Shown here: positions 42,438 to 47,933 of the stretch, piece after piece | How positions within the stretch are numbered: the first letter of the stretch is position 1 | Layout: each line of letters starts with the position of its first letter | Virus record (IMG/VR): IMGVR_UViG_3300042997_002652 | Coordinates: 96,001 to 160,000 of that record | DNA from: a virus | Lineage: Duplodnaviria; Caudoviricetes | DNA: 64,000 nt | Strand: one strand, 5' to 3' | Program-made: the position numbers and the translations under genes | Notes under the pieces: generated by a model | The model's database searches: none | What the model saw: the letters and a program-made list of their open reading frames with translations, nothing else | What the model was told of the DNA's origin: nothing

Positions 42438-42454
42438 ACTTGAACATTTGTTGC

Positions 42455-42490
42455 ACACCCTCTTTATTAAATACATATAAAGAGGAGTGT
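42455..42490 (+). promoter_or_regulatory. Hairpin sequestering the RBS, with a late-promoter TAAATA in its loop
   Basis: Arms 42455-42467 (ACACCCTCTTTAT) and 42477-42490 (ATAAAGAGGAGTGT), loop TAAATACAT, ATG at 42494. Confidence 0.75.
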
Positions 42491-42493
42491 AAA

Positions 42494-43732
42494 ATGTTTT
42501 TAAAAAACAAACCGTTATCTCGTAGAACATTATTAAAAGGTGCAGGTTTCAGCTTAACACTGCCCATGTTAGATGCTATGATACCTACTGTTACCGCAGC
42601 TCCTATTGCTGATCCTAAGTTAGCTTTCATTTACTTTCCTCACGGTGCTGTAATGAAATATTGGACTCCTCAACAAACAGGTAAAGACTTTGAGTTTTCA
42701 CCCATACTAAAACCATTAGAACCTCTTAGAGACTATGTTACTGTAGTAAGCGGATTGAGAAACAAAGGAGGTGAAAGTTCCAATCCTCATAGTATCATTG
42801 AAGAAACTTGGTTAACTTGTGTAGCACCAGACCAAAGAACAGGTGAACAAGGTTTAAGTGCTGATCAGATTGCAGCTAAGCACTTTACAAATACACCTCT
42901 GAGTTCGTTAGAATTATGCGGCGAACCCGGCGGATCACTTAGCTATCGTTCTAACAATCAAGCATTACCGCTTGAAGGCAATCCCAGAAAGGTATATTAT
43001 ACCATGTTCGGGGAAGGTGACAACTATCAAGATCGCATGAACATTCTAACACAGAAAAATAGCTTGTTAGACTATGTAATGGAGAGTACTAAATCACTAA
43101 ATAAGAAACTGGATAACAACGACAAACTTAAAGTGGAAGAGTATTTGAGCAGTGTACGCGATATTGAAAAGCGCATATCAGGGTTAGAAAGCAGTGCTAG
43201 TGGTCTTACTGATTTACCAGAAGCTCCTATTGGTCCGCCCGACGATTTTGAAGCACTATTAGATATTCAGTATGAAATGATGGCATTAGCATTACAAACA
43301 GGACAAACTCGTATCGTGAGTATGCGCACAGTTAAAGAAGCCAGTATGAGAGTGTTCAGCAACTTGGGCATTGAGGAAGCGTTTCATCCACTTAGCCATC
43401 ATCAAGAAAATGAAGCCAAGTACGAACAATTAGTAAGACTACAGCGTTGGCAAACTGAACGCGCTGCTAAATTTGCTCTTAGACTAAAAGATATGGGTTT
43501 ACTTGACGATACCGTGATCTTATTTGGTTCTAACATGAGCAATTCAGACAGACATAATAACGATCCACTACCGTCAGTGCTAATTGGTCGTGCAGGTGGC
43601 ATTAAAGGTAATCAGCACTTAGCTTATGCTCAAGATACTTCCCATGCTCGTTTGATACACACAATGTTAGAAAAGACTGGTGTACACTTAGATCAGTTTG
43701 CTGATAGTACAGGATCATTATTAGAAGTATAA
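42494..43732 (+). CDS. DUF1552 (HXXSHH) family protein with twin-arginine-type N-terminus; start revised to 42494
   Basis: SRRTLLKGAG, LPMLDAM, FIYFPHG, SADQIAA, HPLSHH and LDDTVILFGS motifs. GAGGAG RBS. Confidence 0.85.
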   Translation: MFLKNKPLSRRTLLKGAGFSLTLPMLDAMIPTVTAAPIADPKLAFIYFPHGAVMKYWTPQQTGKDFEFSPILKPLEPLRDYVTVVSGLRNKGGESSNPHSIIEETWLTCVAPDQRTGEQGLSADQIAAKHFTNTPLSSLELCGEPGGSLSYRSNNQALPLEGNPRKVYYTMFGEGDNYQDRMNILTQKNSLLDYVMESTKSLNKKLDNNDKLKVEEYLSSVRDIEKRISGLESSASGLTDLPEAPIGPPDDFEALLDIQYEMMALALQTGQTRIVSMRTVKEASMRVFSNLGIEEAFHPLSHHQENEAKYEQLVRLQRWQTERAAKFALRLKDMGLLDDTVILFGSNMSNSDRHNNDPLPSVLIGRAGGIKGNQHLAYAQDTSHARLIHTMLEKTGVHLDQFADSTGSLLEV

Positions 43733-43757: not shown

Positions 43758-43822
43758 TTGACAGGCCTGTCACATAATTTTAACATAGTATTTAATAAAT
43801 ATGTGTGACAAAATTATAACAG
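43758..43822 (+). promoter_or_regulatory. Sigma70 promoter with overlapping palindrome, late motif and Pho-box-like repeats
   Basis: TTGACA(43758)-17-TAACAT. Palindrome TGACAGGCCTGTCA at 43759-43772. CTGTCAC-ATAA-TTTTAAC at 43767-43784 (+). CTGTTAT-AATT-TTGTCAC at 43805-43822 (-). TAAATA at 43796. Confidence 0.6.
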
Positions 43823-43837
43823 TCAAGGATAATATAA

Positions 43838-46063
43838 ATGAATAAACTCAATAAACTTTTCACGGCACTTTTTATAAGTGCCATTTCTTTATCAACCCAG
43901 GCACAACCCTCGCTAGAAGAAATAGTAGTTACAGCTACCAAAAGAGAAACAAACTTAATTGATACACCCATATCAATGTCAGTAGTAAGCTCAAAGAATT
44001 TACAAGAAAGACACGTACAAAGCTTAATGGACTTGGCTGATGGTTCTGTTCCTGGATTAAACATAGCTCCATTTGAATCTAGACAATCTGCTGTTACTAT
44101 TGGTATTAGGGGTATTGTTCCTCTTGATGCTAATCAACCAGCGCGTGAACAAGGAGTAGGTGTTTACATAGATGGAGTATACTTAGGTAGACAACATGGA
44201 TTGAACGCAGCATTGCTAGACTTAGAAAGAATTGAAGTACTAAAAGGACCTCAAGGTACACTCTTTGGTAGAAACACAGAAGGTGGTGCGTTAAGTATGG
44301 TAACAAAAAAACCCACTGGCGAATTTGACTTTAGAATGAATACGGGAGCAGGTAACTATAATAGTAATAATATAGACTTTCATATTAACTTACCTACATT
44401 CTTTAATGTAATGACCAAGATAGATGGGATCACTCAGTATCAAGATGCTACTACTAAAAATCCATTAGCCGGTGAAACTGGTTGGAACTTTTTTGAAAGA
44501 AAGGGATTTAAAATAGCTAACAGATTAGAAACTGATAACTTTACTTTTGATTATTCATATGATGTAAGTATGGATGCGAACAGTCCCTTTTATAGTCAAT
44601 TGCTTAATTACAATCCCATGAATTTGCCAAATGTAACTCCTCTTCCTCCTATGGTAGTTGTAAACGGTTCTAGTATCATGAAAAAAGGTGATATTGGTGT
44701 TCCGCAACAACCTAGCGTAGCTGATGTAGGTGGTCAAAGTTTTAATATTATTTGGGATGTAACAGACAACTTAGAGTTTAGATCAATCACAGCTAAGCGT
44801 TGGGTAGATTCTACACAGTGGGATAATGCTGGCGGTGCTCACAGAATTCCAGTAGCTAAAGCAAACAGTGTATTCAGTAGATATAGTGTTTCTGAACTTC
44901 ATCAAACACAATTTAGTCAAGAGTTTCAGTTAGTAGGAAGCACTGATACTATTGATTACGTAGCTGGTTTATACTACTTTACTGAAGACGCATATGAAGA
45001 AGCAGCCACTCCTTCAACTAATACTTGGAACTTTACTCTAACTGGTTATACTATAAATGATCTTACCCCAACTCAACCAGGTAAAAGATTTATAGATAGA
45101 GGTAGTAGAGCCACTGCTGTTAGTAGCGCAGTGTTTTCACAGGCTACTTATACCCCTATTAATTTTGAAAGACTACATATAACATTAGGCGGAAGATATA
45201 CTAAAGACGATAAATCAGGCGAGTTGTATCTTTTAAGAAATAACCCATCACCGTACTCTTTCATAGAAATTTCTAAAAGATTTAATCCTTTAGCAATCGT
45301 TGCGTTTGATGTTACTGATGGTATCAATGCTTATGTGAAATACGCTACTGGTTATCGTTCTGGTGGTGCTAGTTCACGTTCAGCAACTTATCGCTCATTT
45401 GGACCTGAAGATAATATTTCATATGAGTTAGGTGTAAAAGCGCAATTAGATCGTGCTAGAATTAACTTTGCTGCTTACACGATGGAAAGAACTGGTAGTC
45501 AAGTTGACTTTAGTCAAGTAGTATTTGATCCTGTTTCTAAGTCTTCTAGACACACATTAGAAACTATGAATGCTCCGGGGATTACTGAAATTCAAGGTAT
45601 CGAACTTGATGGAACATTCTTAGTAACTGAAAATTTAGAAGTAACAGCAGCGTATACGTATACAACTACATCAGTACCTGCTACAATTAATCCGTTTAAA
45701 AACTTACCTCAACCAGTGTTTATTGTATATACACCTGAAAATGTTTGGAACTTGGGAGCAAATCATACATTAGCACTTGACAAGTTTACAGTAGAAACAC
45801 ATTTGAGTGCGAATAAGTCTGATCCTTCATATTCATTTTCTGAATTTGATTTACCAAATGACGGATCATTTATCGTAAATGCAAGCGTATCTATAAATAA
45901 CTTTATTAATGCTGAAAGTCTAAGCTTACAATTGTGGGTAAGAAATATGTTAGATGGTCATTTTGTTTTTAGAAGTGATCCATCAAATGACAATGTGTTG
46001 GGTACTTATGGTAACTTTAACGCGCCAAGAACTTTCGGTATCACATTAGGGTACGAAATATAA
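43838..46063 (+). CDS. TonB-dependent outer-membrane receptor
   Basis: Signal peptide, TonB box LEEIVVTA, plug GVYIDGVY...ERIEVLKGPQGTLFGRNTEGGA, C-terminal PRTFGITLGYEI. Confidence 0.95.
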   Translation: MNKLNKLFTALFISAISLSTQAQPSLEEIVVTATKRETNLIDTPISMSVVSSKNLQERHVQSLMDLADGSVPGLNIAPFESRQSAVTIGIRGIVPLDANQPAREQGVGVYIDGVYLGRQHGLNAALLDLERIEVLKGPQGTLFGRNTEGGALSMVTKKPTGEFDFRMNTGAGNYNSNNIDFHINLPTFFNVMTKIDGITQYQDATTKNPLAGETGWNFFERKGFKIANRLETDNFTFDYSYDVSMDANSPFYSQLLNYNPMNLPNVTPLPPMVVVNGSSIMKKGDIGVPQQPSVADVGGQSFNIIWDVTDNLEFRSITAKRWVDSTQWDNAGGAHRIPVAKANSVFSRYSVSELHQTQFSQEFQLVGSTDTIDYVAGLYYFTEDAYEEAATPSTNTWNFTLTGYTINDLTPTQPGKRFIDRGSRATAVSSAVFSQATYTPINFERLHITLGGRYTKDDKSGELYLLRNNPSPYSFIEISKRFNPLAIVAFDVTDGINAYVKYATGYRSGGASSRSATYRSFGPEDNISYELGVKAQLDRARINFAAYTMERTGSQVDFSQVVFDPVSKSSRHTLETMNAPGITEIQGIELDGTFLVTENLEVTAAYTYTTTSVPATINPFKNLPQPVFIVYTPENVWNLGANHTLALDKFTVETHLSANKSDPSYSFSEFDLPNDGSFIVNASVSINNFINAESLSLQLWVRNMLDGHFVFRSDPSNDNVLGTYGNFNAPRTFGITLGYEI

Positions 46064-46773
46064 TGTTAAAAGATAAACTAACCATAGTAATACCTTGCAA
46101 AAATGAAGAAAAATATATAGCTCACCTGCTAAATTCATTACATGAGCAAATAGGTATTCATGATGTTAGAATAATTATAGCTGACATATCAACTGATAAT
46201 ACTAGACAAGTTATAGAAGAAAACAAAAAGGACTTAGATGTAGTAGTTATAGAGGGAGGTCCCGTGTCCAAAGCCAAAAACAATGGAGCCGATCTTGTAA
46301 CTACTCCCTATATCTTATTCATAGATAGTGATGTTAGGTTTTTTAATAATTTGGTTATTAGCGACACGATAGCACTATTAGAAAAAGAAAACTTAGATTT
46401 GATTGGGTTAAATATAAAGTGCTATGATAATGATCACGTTGCTAAGGTTAGTTTTAGCATTTTTAATATTGTTAATAAAATAATGTCTAACTTTATACCT
46501 TTTGCAGTTGGTGCGTATATGTTAACTCGTACTGAAAAGTTCTATGAGTTGGGAGGCTTTCCTGAAAAGTATCCTACATCAGAAGATTTTCATTTATCTA
46601 AAAAATATGATGTTAAAAAGTTTAAGATAGCCAATCATTATTTTGGTCAAGATAGTAGAAGATTTAAAAAGATGGGATACTTTGGTATGACTTGGTATTT
46701 GATAAAAAACTTTATTAACAGAAATAATGAATCTTATTGGAAGAACTTAGATGGAAACAAATACTGGTTATAA
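46063..46773 (+). CDS. Glycosyltransferase family 2
   Basis: IVIPCKNEE, IADISTDNT, NNGA, FIDSDV (DxD) and SEDF motifs. Confidence 0.9.
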   Translation: MLKDKLTIVIPCKNEEKYIAHLLNSLHEQIGIHDVRIIIADISTDNTRQVIEENKKDLDVVVIEGGPVSKAKNNGADLVTTPYILFIDSDVRFFNNLVISDTIALLEKENLDLIGLNIKCYDNDHVAKVSFSIFNIVNKIMSNFIPFAVGAYMLTRTEKFYELGGFPEKYPTSEDFHLSKKYDVKKFKIANHYFGQDSRRFKKMGYFGMTWYLIKNFINRNNESYWKNLDGNKYWL

Positions 46774-47488
46774 ATCAGTTTTTATATCAGACTTACACCT
46801 GGGTTCTAAACACTGCAACTCTGAAAAGCTTTTGTCTTTTTTATCAAATCTACAAACAGAAAAATTGTACTTAGTAGGAGATATAATAGACGGTTGGAGA
46901 TTGCAGAAAAAGTGGTATTGGCCTAACAAACATAATATAATACTAAAAAAACTTATCAAGTTATCTAAGACAACCGAAATTATATACATTACCGGTAATC
47001 ATGACGAGTTTCTTAGATCAATACCTGATGTTAAAATAGGTAATGTACCAGTATATAACAGAATAGACCACATAGGTACTGATGGTAAACGATACTTAGT
47101 TACTCATGGTGATATATTTGATCATTTAATGAGAACGCGCAGCGGCAGATTTGTCATGCATTTGGGTGATATAGCATACGATGGTTTAATATATCTTAAC
47201 CGATTGGTAAATGGTGTGAGAAAAATATTTAACAGACCGCCGTGGAGTTTAGCTAAATTTTTAAAAAAGAAAGCAAAAGCGGCTGCTACATACATAGGTG
47301 ACTTTGAACAAGAAATGTCAACGTATTGTAAAAAGAAAGGATACGATGGTGTAATCTGCGGTCACATTCATCATGCGACTATCAAGAATTTTGACGGAGT
47401 AGTTTACATGAATGATGGAGACTGGTGTGAAAGTTGCACTGCTTTAGTTGAAACTAAAGCAGGCACATTTACAATCATCCAATACTGA
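46751..47488 (+). CDS. plcP: PlcP-like phospholipase C (LpxH-like metallophosphoesterase subfamily)
   Basis: FISDLHLGS, LYLVGDIIDGWRL..KWYWP, GNHDE, VTHGDIFD, DGVICGHIHH and YMNDGDWCESCTALVE match my recollection of the PlcP subfamily along the whole length. Confidence 0.75.
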   Translation: METNTGYKSVFISDLHLGSKHCNSEKLLSFLSNLQTEKLYLVGDIIDGWRLQKKWYWPNKHNIILKKLIKLSKTTEIIYITGNHDEFLRSIPDVKIGNVPVYNRIDHIGTDGKRYLVTHGDIFDHLMRTRSGRFVMHLGDIAYDGLIYLNRLVNGVRKIFNRPPWSLAKFLKKKAKAAATYIGDFEQEMSTYCKKKGYDGVICGHIHHATIKNFDGVVYMNDGDWCESCTALVETKAGTFTIIQY

Positions 47489-47933
47489 TATCTTCCATAC
47501 CAGCCGTTCTTAGTTTTACGATGTGACCCATTTGCCATTGTTTGGCTTCTAAGCCCTTAAGTATACCTAAAAACTTATTTCTCAATAAAGCTACTTCGTT
47601 TATTATTAATTCGTACTCAATTACTTCATCTTCACCATCGGTATACTTTTCTGCATCTCGTGAAGTTAATGCACGATTGTAAGCTTCTAAGTATTTTTGA
47701 AAATGTTTCCTACGTATTTTTCGTAGTTGAATATTAAGGTAATTAAGTACTGCTTCAACTTCTTGTAAATGATTAAAACGTAACTCAGTTATGCCGGGTA
47801 ATGCGGCAATGTTCTTTTCAACATTGCCGTAGATCGTTACTTCTTTCTTTGCCTGTGCTAACTGATTTTCATAATATGAAATAAAATCAGGTAGTTGAGA
47901 AAGATCATTAGTTACACGATTATACCAAGTCAT
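47475..47933 (-). CDS. uvsY: Recombination mediator (T4 UvsY-like)
   Basis: Helical 152 aa ending VKLRTAGMED, with LTSRDAEKY. Next to uvsX. Confidence 0.8.
   Translation of the reverse strand: MTWYNRVTNDLSQLPDFISYYENQLAQAKKEVTIYGNVEKNIAALPGITELRFNHLQEVEAVLNYLNIQLRKIRRKHFQKYLEAYNRALTSRDAEKYTDGEDEVIEYELIINEVALLRNKFLGILKGLEAKQWQMGHIVKLRTAGMEDISIG

What the first reader, a model, noticed from the sequence alone, without database searches (positions are those of the whole stretch)
46063..47488. Phage-encoded PlcP-like phospholipase C plus glycosyltransferase: lipid remodelling to free phosphate
The 245-aa ORF matches PlcP-type motifs throughout, including GWRL..KWYWP and GDWCESCTALVE, and overlaps a GT2 gene (seen). 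In P-starved bacteria PlcP cleaves phospholipids to diacylglycerol, which adjacent glycosyltransferases convert to P-free glycolipids (established for Sinorhizobium and marine heterotrophs, where the partner is often GT4 rather than GT2). A phage carrying both could mine host membranes for phosphate for its large genome while keeping the membrane intact, and might change lipid-dependent superinfection or lysis (inference). This is the top candidate for a new auxiliary system.
Basis: partly seen in the sequence, partly recalled or inferred. Interest (0 to 1): 0.85.

Follow-up and report, generated by a model that had tools for sequence, protein, structure and literature searches.

The report
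Phage PlcP-type phospholipase plus GT2 cassette
A large T4-like marine phage carries a bacterial-type enzyme that cuts the phosphate head off membrane lipids, coupled to a sugar-adding enzyme, so it probably turns the host's phospholipids into phosphorus-free glycolipids during infection; databases label the first enzyme wrongly as the lipid A enzyme LpxH.

Summary
At 46063-46773 and 46751-47488 lie two intact + strand genes that overlap by 23 nt. One is a 236-aa GT2 glycosyltransferase. The other is a 245-aa metallophosphoesterase (MPE) that belongs to the PlcP branch, not to LpxH.

- **Not LpxH:** it scores 44.6 against LpxH's cut-off of 134 bits, has GNHDE where LpxH has GNRD, and sits across a 100/100 branch from LpxH. 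The same SAR86 and Pseudomonas genomes also hold a true LpxH.
- **Pair is conserved:** 34 of 86 viral-collection or phage loci examined carry GT2 directly upstream of the MPE (some of these contigs proved cellular). So do four SAR86 genomes, where the pair lies beside phoX, and in one also phoD. GT2 relatives at only 45-47% identity keep the link, in either gene order.
- **GT2 takes Agt's place:** most cellular relatives have plcP followed by GT4 agt, sometimes then ugd. One IMG/VR contig with phage-type genes has plcP-agt, and one T4-like contig has a Ugd-like gene before GT2-plcP.

This supports the lipid-remodelling reading. Substrates, timing and the phosphate benefit are inferred, and PhoB control of this copy is not shown. 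In this phage a TonB-dependent receptor gene is joined to the same operon.

I found no paper describing a phage PlcP. This scan noted similar cassettes on other phage DNA (31 notes, at least 26 genomes).

The parts
43758..43833 (+). Promoter-like region in the 105-bp gap upstream of the receptor-GT2-plcP operon. It holds two sigma-70-like matches and a CTGTCAC...TAACA element.
   Evidence: TTGACA-17-TAACAT at 43758-43786 and GTGACA-17-GATAAT at 43805-43833; the same element lies upstream of the receptor gene in L154 and directly upstream of GT2 in L004, which has no receptor gene. Matches to the E. coli Pho-box consensus are no more frequent than chance.
43838..46063 (+). TonB-dependent outer-membrane receptor gene (741 aa). 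It is the first gene of the operon and its stop overlaps the GT2 start (TAATG).
   Evidence: Plug domain 65.4 bits; TonB-dependent receptor subfamily models; junction sequence. Copies of 88-97% identity lie next to GT2-MPE in viral contigs L149, L150, L153 and L154.
46063..46773 (+). GT2-family (GT-A fold) glycosyltransferase of 236 aa with no transmembrane segment. Proposed diacylglycerol glycosyltransferase.
   Evidence: PF00535 68.8 bits. AlphaFold model pLDDT 95.9, with a GT-A fold like TarS, AglE and CrtQ. Invariant D88/D90 (DXD) and D175 in 76 sequences. Context evidence.
46751..47488 (+). PlcP-type metallophosphoesterase of 245 aa with an LpxH-like fold and a helical lid. Proposed phospholipase C that releases diacylglycerol.
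   Evidence: Metallophos. Below both LpxH cut-offs. PlcP-type clade in the tree. GNHDE and 27 clade-specific positions. Model and LpxH-like fold.
47475..47933 (-). Convergent 152-aa ORF in the UvsY position. It marks the downstream end of the + strand unit; its last 14 nt overlap the end of plcP.
   Evidence: for coordinates. The same 152-aa ORF follows the pair in L003 and L004, ahead of the RecA/UvsX-like gene. It has no Pfam match, so the name is by position only.

Best explanation
The two genes form a phage-borne version of the bacterial phosphate-stress lipid-renovation pathway.

1. The 245-aa protein is a PlcP-type, Mn-dependent metallophosphoesterase. It sits on the cytoplasmic face of the inner membrane through a cationic amphipathic lid. 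[quoted passage not shown]
2. The 236-aa GT2 enzyme has an inverting GT-A fold with a DXD motif. It transfers a sugar from a UDP-sugar to that diacylglycerol and so makes a phosphorus-free glycolipid. The bilayer survives while lipid phosphorus is freed for nucleotide synthesis of a genome of at least 267 kb.
3. In this phage the pair is co-transcribed with, and translationally coupled to, a TonB-dependent receptor gene.

Shown here: intact genes, family placement, conserved catalytic residues, and conserved linkage of the two genes in phages and cells beside Pho-regulon genes. Inferred: substrates, the sugar donor, timing, and the benefit to the phage.
For: **Family placement**
- NCBIfam LpxH equivalogs score 44.6 bits (cut-off 134) and 34.6 bits (cut-off 190).
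- Three SAR86 genomes and Pseudomonas guineae each hold a true LpxH (278-342 bits). In three of these four genomes the PlcP-like paralogue also registered, at only 42-56 bits.
- In the ML tree LpxH is split from the PlcP-like clade at 100/100, and the window protein lies inside that clade.
- It has GNHDE where LpxH has GNRD, all metal ligands are kept, and 27 clade-specific positions are present.
- The model has an LpxH-like fold with a helical lid.

**Canonical context of relatives**
- In 67 loci the MPE is followed by one gene family, shown to be GT4 in the four members checked. These include most SAR86, Pseudomonas, Croceicoccus and Kordiimonas.
- SAR86 loci L031 and L032 add a UDP-glucose dehydrogenase.

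**Linkage of GT2 with the MPE**
- The same 23-nt overlap occurs in SAR86 L007, with 66% (GT2) and 58% (MPE) identity to the window.
- All four SAR86-order genomes that have the GT2 show phoX next to GT2-MPE, and G010 also has phoD.
- 34 of 86 viral-collection or phage loci have GT2 directly upstream of the MPE.
- GT2 relatives of 45-47% identity still adjoin a Metallophos gene, in either order.
- T4-like contig L202 has Ugd-like, GT2, MPE. Crocinitomicaceae L096 has MPE, GT2, Ugd-like.
- IMG/VR contig L226 has the canonical MPE then GT4.
- Pelagiphage Mosig has the MPE divergent from pstS.

**Other**
- Neither protein has a transmembrane segment, and both have cationic amphipathic helices.
- Literature for the pathway: PMC4796936, PMC8528852, PMC9239053.
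Against: - No experimentally validated PlcP sequence (S. meliloti, MED193, HTCC7211, PAO1) could be put in the tree. Orthology rests on the plcP-agt context of the relatives.
- No GT2 of this family has been characterised. The fold search finds only generic GT-A enzymes with varied acceptors.
- Pho-box-like sequences upstream are no more frequent than chance in this window.
- The 267-kb record has no PstS-family hit.
- 46 of 86 viral-collection or phage loci carry the MPE without a nearby GT2, so the phospholipase can serve alone.
- The operon also encodes an outer-membrane receptor, which points to envelope remodelling as much as to phosphorus economy.
- The host is unknown.
Confidence: 0.65

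Rival explanations
1. Envelope remodelling for the phage's own ends rather than phosphorus scavenging. The same chemistry (phospholipid to diacylglycerol to glycolipid) is used to change membrane charge or composition. That could block superinfection, tune lysis, or help insert the co-expressed outer-membrane receptor.
For: The pair is translationally coupled to a TonB-dependent receptor gene and closes a + strand island that also holds a Tat-signal DUF1552 protein. No significant Pho box lies upstream in this window. No pstS was found in the record. Bacterial glycolipids of this pathway alter resistance to a cationic antimicrobial peptide (polymyxin B) in P. aeruginosa (PMC8528852).
Against: The cellular copies of the same cassette lie beside phoX and phoD. 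Mosig's copy lies beside pstS. The closest relative L003 has three TTAAC repeats at 11-bp period upstream of GT2. Relatives keep the pair without the receptor gene.
Confidence: 0.17
2. The two enzymes work together but not on diacylglycerol. For example, the MPE cleaves another lipid-linked or nucleotide phosphodiester, and the GT2 glycosylates a polyprenol phosphate, LPS core or another acceptor.
For: The GT2 fold matches enzymes with many acceptors: teichoic acid, polyprenol-linked glycans, a carotenoid. The best PHROG hit is GtrB-like, though weak at 30 bits. The MPE lid is modelled with low confidence (pLDDT 47-66 for residues 121-180).
Against: The MPE is nested among proteins whose next gene is the GT4 Agt. 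The GT2 lacks the C-terminal membrane helices that I recall for GtrB-type enzymes; the absence of any transmembrane segment is. The GT2 occupies Agt's operon position, with Ugd-like genes nearby.
Confidence: 0.12
3. It is LpxH, the UDP-2,3-diacylglucosamine hydrolase of lipid A synthesis, with an LPS glycosyltransferase. This is how sources and virome AMG lists label it.
For: JGI names the relatives LpxH. GenBank annotates the Mosig and S-SRM01 homologues as the same enzyme (UDP-2,3-diacylglucosamine hydrolase/diphosphatase). Viral 'lpxH' is listed under LPS synthesis in PMC10653327. The nearest solved fold is LpxH.
Against: It scores far below both LpxH equivalog cut-offs and gets only 22.5 bits to PDB LpxH. 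A separate true LpxH is present in the same cellular genomes. A 100/100 split separates the two clades. The motif is GNHDE, not GNRD.
Confidence: 0.03

Closest known systems
Bacterial PlcP-Agt lipid-renovation pathway (Sinorhizobium meliloti SMc00171; Phaeobacter sp. MED193 MED193_17359; SAR11 HTCC7211 PB7211_983/960; P. aeruginosa PA3219/PA3218)
   Same: A PlcP-type LpxH-like metallophosphoesterase is coupled in one operon to a glycosyltransferase, and the cellular copies lie in phosphate-stress contexts (phoX, phoD). The window protein is about 47% identical to Pseudomonas homologues that are followed by GT4 agt. That level matches the identity reported between validated PlcPs (PMC8528852).
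   Different: This copy is carried by a lytic-type T4-like phage. The partner is a 236-aa GT-A GT2 enzyme rather than the GT-B GT4 Agt, so I would expect an inverting transfer (my knowledge of the family). The gene order is GT then plcP. In this phage a TonB-dependent receptor gene is fused to the operon. No Pho box is demonstrable.
'Uncharacterised glycosyltransferase' beside plcP in Bacteroidetes (Supplementary Table S2 of Sebastian et al. 2016, PMC4796936)
   Same: That paper lists plcP next to an uncharacterised glycosyltransferase that it does not call Agt, in Cytophaga, Eudoraea, Flavobacteriaceae and others. Here a Crocinitomicaceae MAG has plcP followed by a GT2 that is 69% identical to the window's.
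   Different: I could not check that the published genes belong to this GT2 family. None of them has been characterised, and none was reported from a virus.
LpxH (UDP-2,3-diacylglucosamine hydrolase)
   Same: Same fold: a calcineurin-like core plus a helical lipid-binding lid. Foldseek TM 0.61-0.65 over about 257 columns.
   Different: 17-22% identity, GNRD versus GNHDE, a separate clade, and a separate gene in the same genomes.
Known phage phosphate-stress AMGs (pstS, phoH, phoA of cyanophages and pelagiphages)
   Same: These are host-derived genes of marine T4-like phages linked to phosphorus economy. Mosig's PlcP homologue is divergent from its pstS, and this phage has phoH.
   Different: Those genes act on uptake or have unknown roles. 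This cassette would mobilise phosphorus already built into the host's membrane.

Membership tests
PlcP-type phospholipase C (LpxH-like metallophosphoesterase) | Calcineurin-like metallophosphoesterase with all metal-binding motifs (DxH, GD, GNH[D/E], H, GHxH) | tested here: met
   D14, H16, D44, N83, H84, H119, H205 and H207 are invariant in 38 sequences. Pfam Metallophos 46.8 bits.
PlcP-type phospholipase C (LpxH-like metallophosphoesterase) | Groups with the paralogues that precede agt, and apart from LpxH | tested here: met
   ML tree, 100/100 split. Context of relatives.
PlcP-type phospholipase C (LpxH-like metallophosphoesterase) | Helical lid inserted in the catalytic core (lipid-binding cap, as in LpxH) | tested here: met
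   Helices at 121-196 in the model, aligned full-length to LpxH-lipid X structures. The lid has low pLDDT (47-79). A cationic amphipathic segment lies at 145-175.
PlcP-type phospholipase C (LpxH-like metallophosphoesterase) | Expression under PhoB / phosphate starvation (Pho box upstream) | tested here: inconclusive
   E. coli-type consensus: 4 matches against 6.6 expected. TTAAC x3 type: 5 against 8 expected in the window. In relative L003 there is one exact match upstream of GT2 against 0.01 expected, but I chose that pattern after seeing the sequence.
PlcP-type phospholipase C (LpxH-like metallophosphoesterase) | Mn-dependent hydrolysis of PE/PG/PC to diacylglycerol | not testable with these tools
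   Needs an enzyme assay or complementation.
LpxH (UDP-2,3-diacylglucosamine hydrolase) | Reaches the curated equivalog score | tested here: not met
   NF003743 44.6 bits against 134; TIGR01854 34.6 against 190.35.
LpxH (UDP-2,3-diacylglucosamine hydrolase) | GNRD variant of motif III | tested here: not met
   The window has GNHDE. The four LpxH sequences from the SAR86 and Pseudomonas genomes that also carry PlcP-type genes have GNRD.
Agt (GT4 diacylglycerol glucosyl/glucuronosyl transferase) | GT-B fold, GT4 family domains | tested here: not met
   The partner is GT2 with a GT-A fold. It has no similarity to the GT4 genes of SAR86 or Pseudomonas.
GT2 (GT-A nucleotide-sugar glycosyltransferases) | GT-A Rossmann-like fold with a DXD motif and a downstream acidic catalytic residue | tested here: met
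   PF00535 68.8 bits. Model pLDDT 95.9. D88, D90 and D175 invariant. Foldseek E about 1e-13 to GT2 enzymes.
Lipid (diacylglycerol) glycosyltransferase function of the GT2 | Transfers a sugar to diacylglycerol | not testable with these tools
   Only context supports it: the GT2 is linked to plcP in phages and cells, takes the operon slot of Agt, and has Ugd-like neighbours. The close L096 homologue passes the GT21 model (36.1 against 21.7); the window's copy is just below (20.6).

The most novel reading that the evidence does not exclude
Marine T4-like phages of several lineages encode their own membrane lipid-renovation pathway. At least 328 IMG/VR contigs hold a PlcP-type gene, though a few of those examined look cellular. 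The pathway is often built with an uncharacterised GT2-type diacylglycerol glycosyltransferase that replaces the bacterial GT4 Agt. The cassette moved as a unit between phages and cells. It now sits beside phoX/phoD in a SAR86 subclade, nested within viral diversity in both gene trees, which suggests that viruses supplied a host phosphate-stress trait. In this phage it has been wired to a TonB-dependent receptor gene under one promoter.
Probability: 0.35. Interest if true: 0.75.

Novelty: new variant of a known kind. Interest (0 to 1): 0.65.

Why it matters
- **A new route to phosphorus.** Phosphorus limits both hosts and large phages in the surface ocean. The known phage answers are uptake genes such as pstS. 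A phage-borne PlcP with a glycolipid synthase would tap phosphorus already locked in the host's membrane.
- **The pool is large.** By my own rough estimate, a small cell's membranes hold a few million lipid phosphates. That is of the same order as its genome, and enough for several 270-kb phage genomes.
- **Annotation.** Virome surveys currently count this gene as 'lpxH, LPS biosynthesis' (PMC10653327), which misreads a widespread marine AMG.
- **An untested enzyme family.** The cassette points to an uncharacterised, highly conserved GT2 family as a likely glycolipid synthase. This can be tested directly by expression in E. coli and lipidomics.
- **Wider effects.** Remodelled membranes change grazing and antibiotic susceptibility in bacteria (PMC9457565, PMC8528852), so infection could alter those traits too.

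Tried and rejected
- **Validated PlcP sequences.** I tried to bring one into the tree. A genome-contig scan with the Mosig protein did not return Pelagibacter HTCC7211. The PlcP manganese and mutagenesis paper PMC6052262 is not held. Orthology therefore rests on context.
- **Pho box.** The E. coli consensus and the TTAAC x3 pattern are not enriched in the window. I do not claim PhoB control.
- **Fold search for the GT2 acceptor.** It returned only generic GT-A hits and does not identify the acceptor.
- **Host assignment through the neighbouring genes.** The receptor's best match in the SAR86 order is about 31% identical, and the pattern scan found no cellular relative. DUF1552 was not found in 201 SAR86-order genomes. 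PDB and the Atlas added nothing on DUF1552. The host stays unknown.
- **Near-identical phage records.** A megablast of 8 kb found none. PHROGs has no family for either protein.
- **L205-L207.** I first took these IMG/VR contigs as viral sisters of the SAR86 cassette. Their neighbours (CsgG, HemE, a CHASE2 cyclase) look cellular, so the viral tally includes some cellular contigs.
- **Binding between the two proteins.** I make no such claim, so I sent no complex prediction.
Full report
**What is there**

One search lists two + strand ORFs at the reported coordinates. The first is 46063-46773 (236 aa) and the second is 46751-47488 (245 aa); they overlap by 23 nt. Pfam assigns the first to Glycos_transf_2 (68.8 bits) and the second to Metallophos (46.8 bits).

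The window is bases 96001-160000 of a 266,967-base IMG/VR virus record, which CheckV estimates to be 76% complete. A RecA/UvsX-like gene and gp32 lie immediately downstream on the other strand. Related contigs carry terminase and other T4-type genes.

The pair closes a + strand island. The gene before it is a 741-aa TonB-dependent receptor (43838-46063), whose stop overlaps the GT2 start in TAATG. Before that lies a Tat-signal DUF1552 protein (42440-43732).

**PlcP or LpxH?**

Public sources call the relatives LpxH or give the enzyme's full name, UDP-2,3-diacylglucosamine hydrolase/diphosphatase. Five results argue against that label.

- The two NCBIfam LpxH equivalogs score 44.6 bits (cut-off 134) and 34.6 bits (cut-off 190). 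The best PDB LpxH sequence match is 22.5 bits.
- Three SAR86 genomes and Pseudomonas guineae, all of which hold close relatives of the window protein, each also have a true LpxH at another locus (278-342 bits). In three of these four genomes the paralogue related to the window also registered, at only 42-56 bits.
- In a maximum-likelihood tree of 47 proteins, those LpxH sequences are separated from all the others by a long branch with 100/100 support.
- The alignment shows GNHDE where LpxH has GNRD. The metal ligands are kept, and 27 positions are conserved in the non-LpxH clade but differ in LpxH. All 27 are present in the window protein.
- The AlphaFold model (pLDDT 81) has an LpxH-like core with a helical lid, and its best solved matches are LpxH-lipid X complexes. 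That is what one expects of PlcP, which the literature places as the sister of LpxH (PMC9239053). The fold alone does not discriminate between them.

The non-LpxH clade is the PlcP family, judged by context. In 67 of about 120 cellular loci the next gene belongs to one family, and the four members I checked are GT4. This is the plcP-agt arrangement that was shown experimentally in SAR11, Phaeobacter, Agrobacterium, Pseudomonas aeruginosa and Methylosinus (PMC4796936, PMC8528852, PMC9239053). These loci include most SAR86, several Pseudomonas species, Croceicoccus and Kordiimonas. I could not obtain the experimentally validated sequences themselves, and that is the main gap in the membership argument.

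**The GT2 partner**

The GT2 models with pLDDT 95.9 as a GT-A fold. D88, D90 and D175 are invariant in 76 family members. Fold searches return GT2 enzymes with many different acceptors, so they do not reveal the acceptor here. The case for diacylglycerol is comparative.

- A SAR86 single-cell genome has the same GT2-MPE pair with the same 23-nt overlap, at 66% and 58% identity, divergent from phoX.
- All four of 201 SAR86-order genomes that have the GT2 show phoX next to GT2-MPE. In one, on a 1.23-Mb contig, phoD is also adjacent and the other neighbours are ordinary chromosomal genes.
- 34 of 86 viral-collection or phage loci have GT2 directly upstream of the MPE, overlapping in all but one locus (a 7-nt gap).
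- GT2 relatives of only 45-47% identity still adjoin a Metallophos gene, in either order.
- The GT2 occupies the operon slot of Agt. SAR86 L031 and L032 read plcP-agt-ugd. A Crocinitomicaceae MAG reads plcP-GT2-(short Ugd-like). A T4-like viral contig, with gp15 and a lysozyme, reads (short Ugd-like)-GT2-plcP.
- An IMG/VR contig with ribonucleotide reductase, a NUMOD3 endonuclease, a fatty-acid desaturase and an isocitrate lyase carries the canonical plcP-GT4 pair.
- Sebastian et al. list an 'uncharacterised glycosyltransferase' beside plcP in several Bacteroidetes. This may be the same family, but I did not test that.

Neither protein has a transmembrane segment. Both have cationic amphipathic helices, which fits peripheral membrane enzymes.

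**Distribution and history**

The MPE has thousands of metagenomic relatives. At least 328 IMG/VR contigs encode one. The carriers I confirmed as phages include T4-like lineages of about 142, 150 and at least 267 kb.

Many viral loci carry the MPE without the GT2: 46 of 86. Pelagiphage Mosig has it divergent from pstS.

In separate trees of GT2 and MPE, the SAR86 cassette nests inside viral diversity with the same nearest neighbours. So the pair moved as a unit. Three of those neighbours (L205-L207) look cellular. The direction of transfer, probably virus to cell, is therefore not settled.

**Regulation**

Two sigma-70-like matches lie in the 105-bp gap upstream of the receptor gene. An element CTGTCAC...TAACA there is shared with L154, where it is upstream of the receptor gene. 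It is also shared with L004, where it is directly upstream of GT2 and no receptor gene is present. This suggests that the receptor gene was inserted behind an existing promoter.

Matches to the E. coli Pho-box consensus, and to a TTAAC x3 repeat with an 11-bp period, are no more frequent than chance in the window. The closest relative, L003, has an exact TTAAC x3 repeat just upstream of GT2 (0.01 expected). I chose that pattern after seeing the sequence, so it carries little weight. PhoB control of this copy remains open. The record has phoH but no PstS-family gene.

**Mechanism and rivals**

The best-supported reading (0.65) runs as follows. The phage makes a PlcP-type phospholipase C that strips phospho-head groups from host phospholipids. 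The GT2 then glycosylates the resulting diacylglycerol. Lipid phosphorus is freed while the membrane is kept.

- Rival 1 (0.17): the same chemistry serves envelope remodelling rather than phosphorus economy.
- Rival 2 (0.12): the coupled pair acts on other substrates.
- Rival 3 (0.03): it is LpxH.

Enzyme activities, the sugar donor, timing and the benefit to the phage are all inferred.

**Novelty**

The pathway is well known in bacteria. In the held literature I found no description of a phage-encoded PlcP. A virome study counts viral 'lpxH' under LPS synthesis. PHROGs has no family for either protein.

Notes of this scan report similar phage PlcP-plus-glycosyltransferase cassettes on other DNA: 31 notes in at least 26 genomes. 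Within the scan the theme is therefore recurrent.

I class it as a new variant of a known kind, for three reasons: a viral carrier, a GT2 in place of GT4, and, in this phage, fusion to a receptor gene.

Noticed in passing
window 43838-46063: A complete TonB-dependent receptor gene lies inside the phage and is translationally coupled to GT2. Copies of 88-97% identity occur next to GT2-MPE in viral contigs L149, L150, L153 and L154. The best match in 201 SAR86-order genomes is about 31% identical, and the pattern scan found no close cellular relative.
   Followed up: partly
window 42440-43732; L003:3-287: A DUF1552 (HXXSHH) protein with a twin-arginine signal lies in the phage. An 89% identical fragment sits at the start of the related contig L003. 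It was not found in 201 SAR86-order genomes, has no solved relative, and is of unknown function.
   Followed up: partly
L147 (G010:C1:721000-739000), L007, L146, L148: A SAR86 subclade (4 of 201 genomes searched) has phoX divergent from GT2-plcP, with phoD as well in G010. Other SAR86 have plcP-agt(-ugd). In both gene trees this cassette nests within viral sequences.
   Followed up: yes
L226:4020-7711: A 95.7-kb IMG/VR contig carries a fatty-acid desaturase, an isocitrate lyase, plcP and GT4 agt in a row, after ribonucleotide reductase genes and before an SNase and a NUMOD3 endonuclease. This looks like a lipid and carbon AMG cluster with the canonical plcP-agt pair.
   Followed up: partly
L202:610-2826; L096:2738-5150: Short (250-263 aa) UDP-glucose/GDP-mannose dehydrogenase-family proteins that lack the C-terminal UDP-binding domain flank the GT2-plcP pair. 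One is in a T4-like phage contig and one in a Crocinitomicaceae MAG. In L096 a class-3 lipase gene lies next door on the other strand.
   Followed up: partly
L207:440-9380 (also L205, L206): These IMG/VR 'viral' contigs carry GT2-plcP among CsgG, a curlin-repeat protein, FecR, HemE and a CHASE2 adenylate cyclase. They look cellular, so tallies of viral carriers include some cellular DNA.
   Followed up: partly
L003:1510-1536; L001:7900-7990: Three TTAAC units at 11-bp period lie just upstream of GT2 in the closest relative. Two such units lie in the pstS-plcP divergent region of pelagiphage Mosig. From memory, this resembles the cyanobacterial-type Pho box.
   Followed up: partly
G000:C1:70495-71112 (outside the window): The phage record encodes PhoH (241.6 bits) but has no PstS-family protein.
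   Followed up: no
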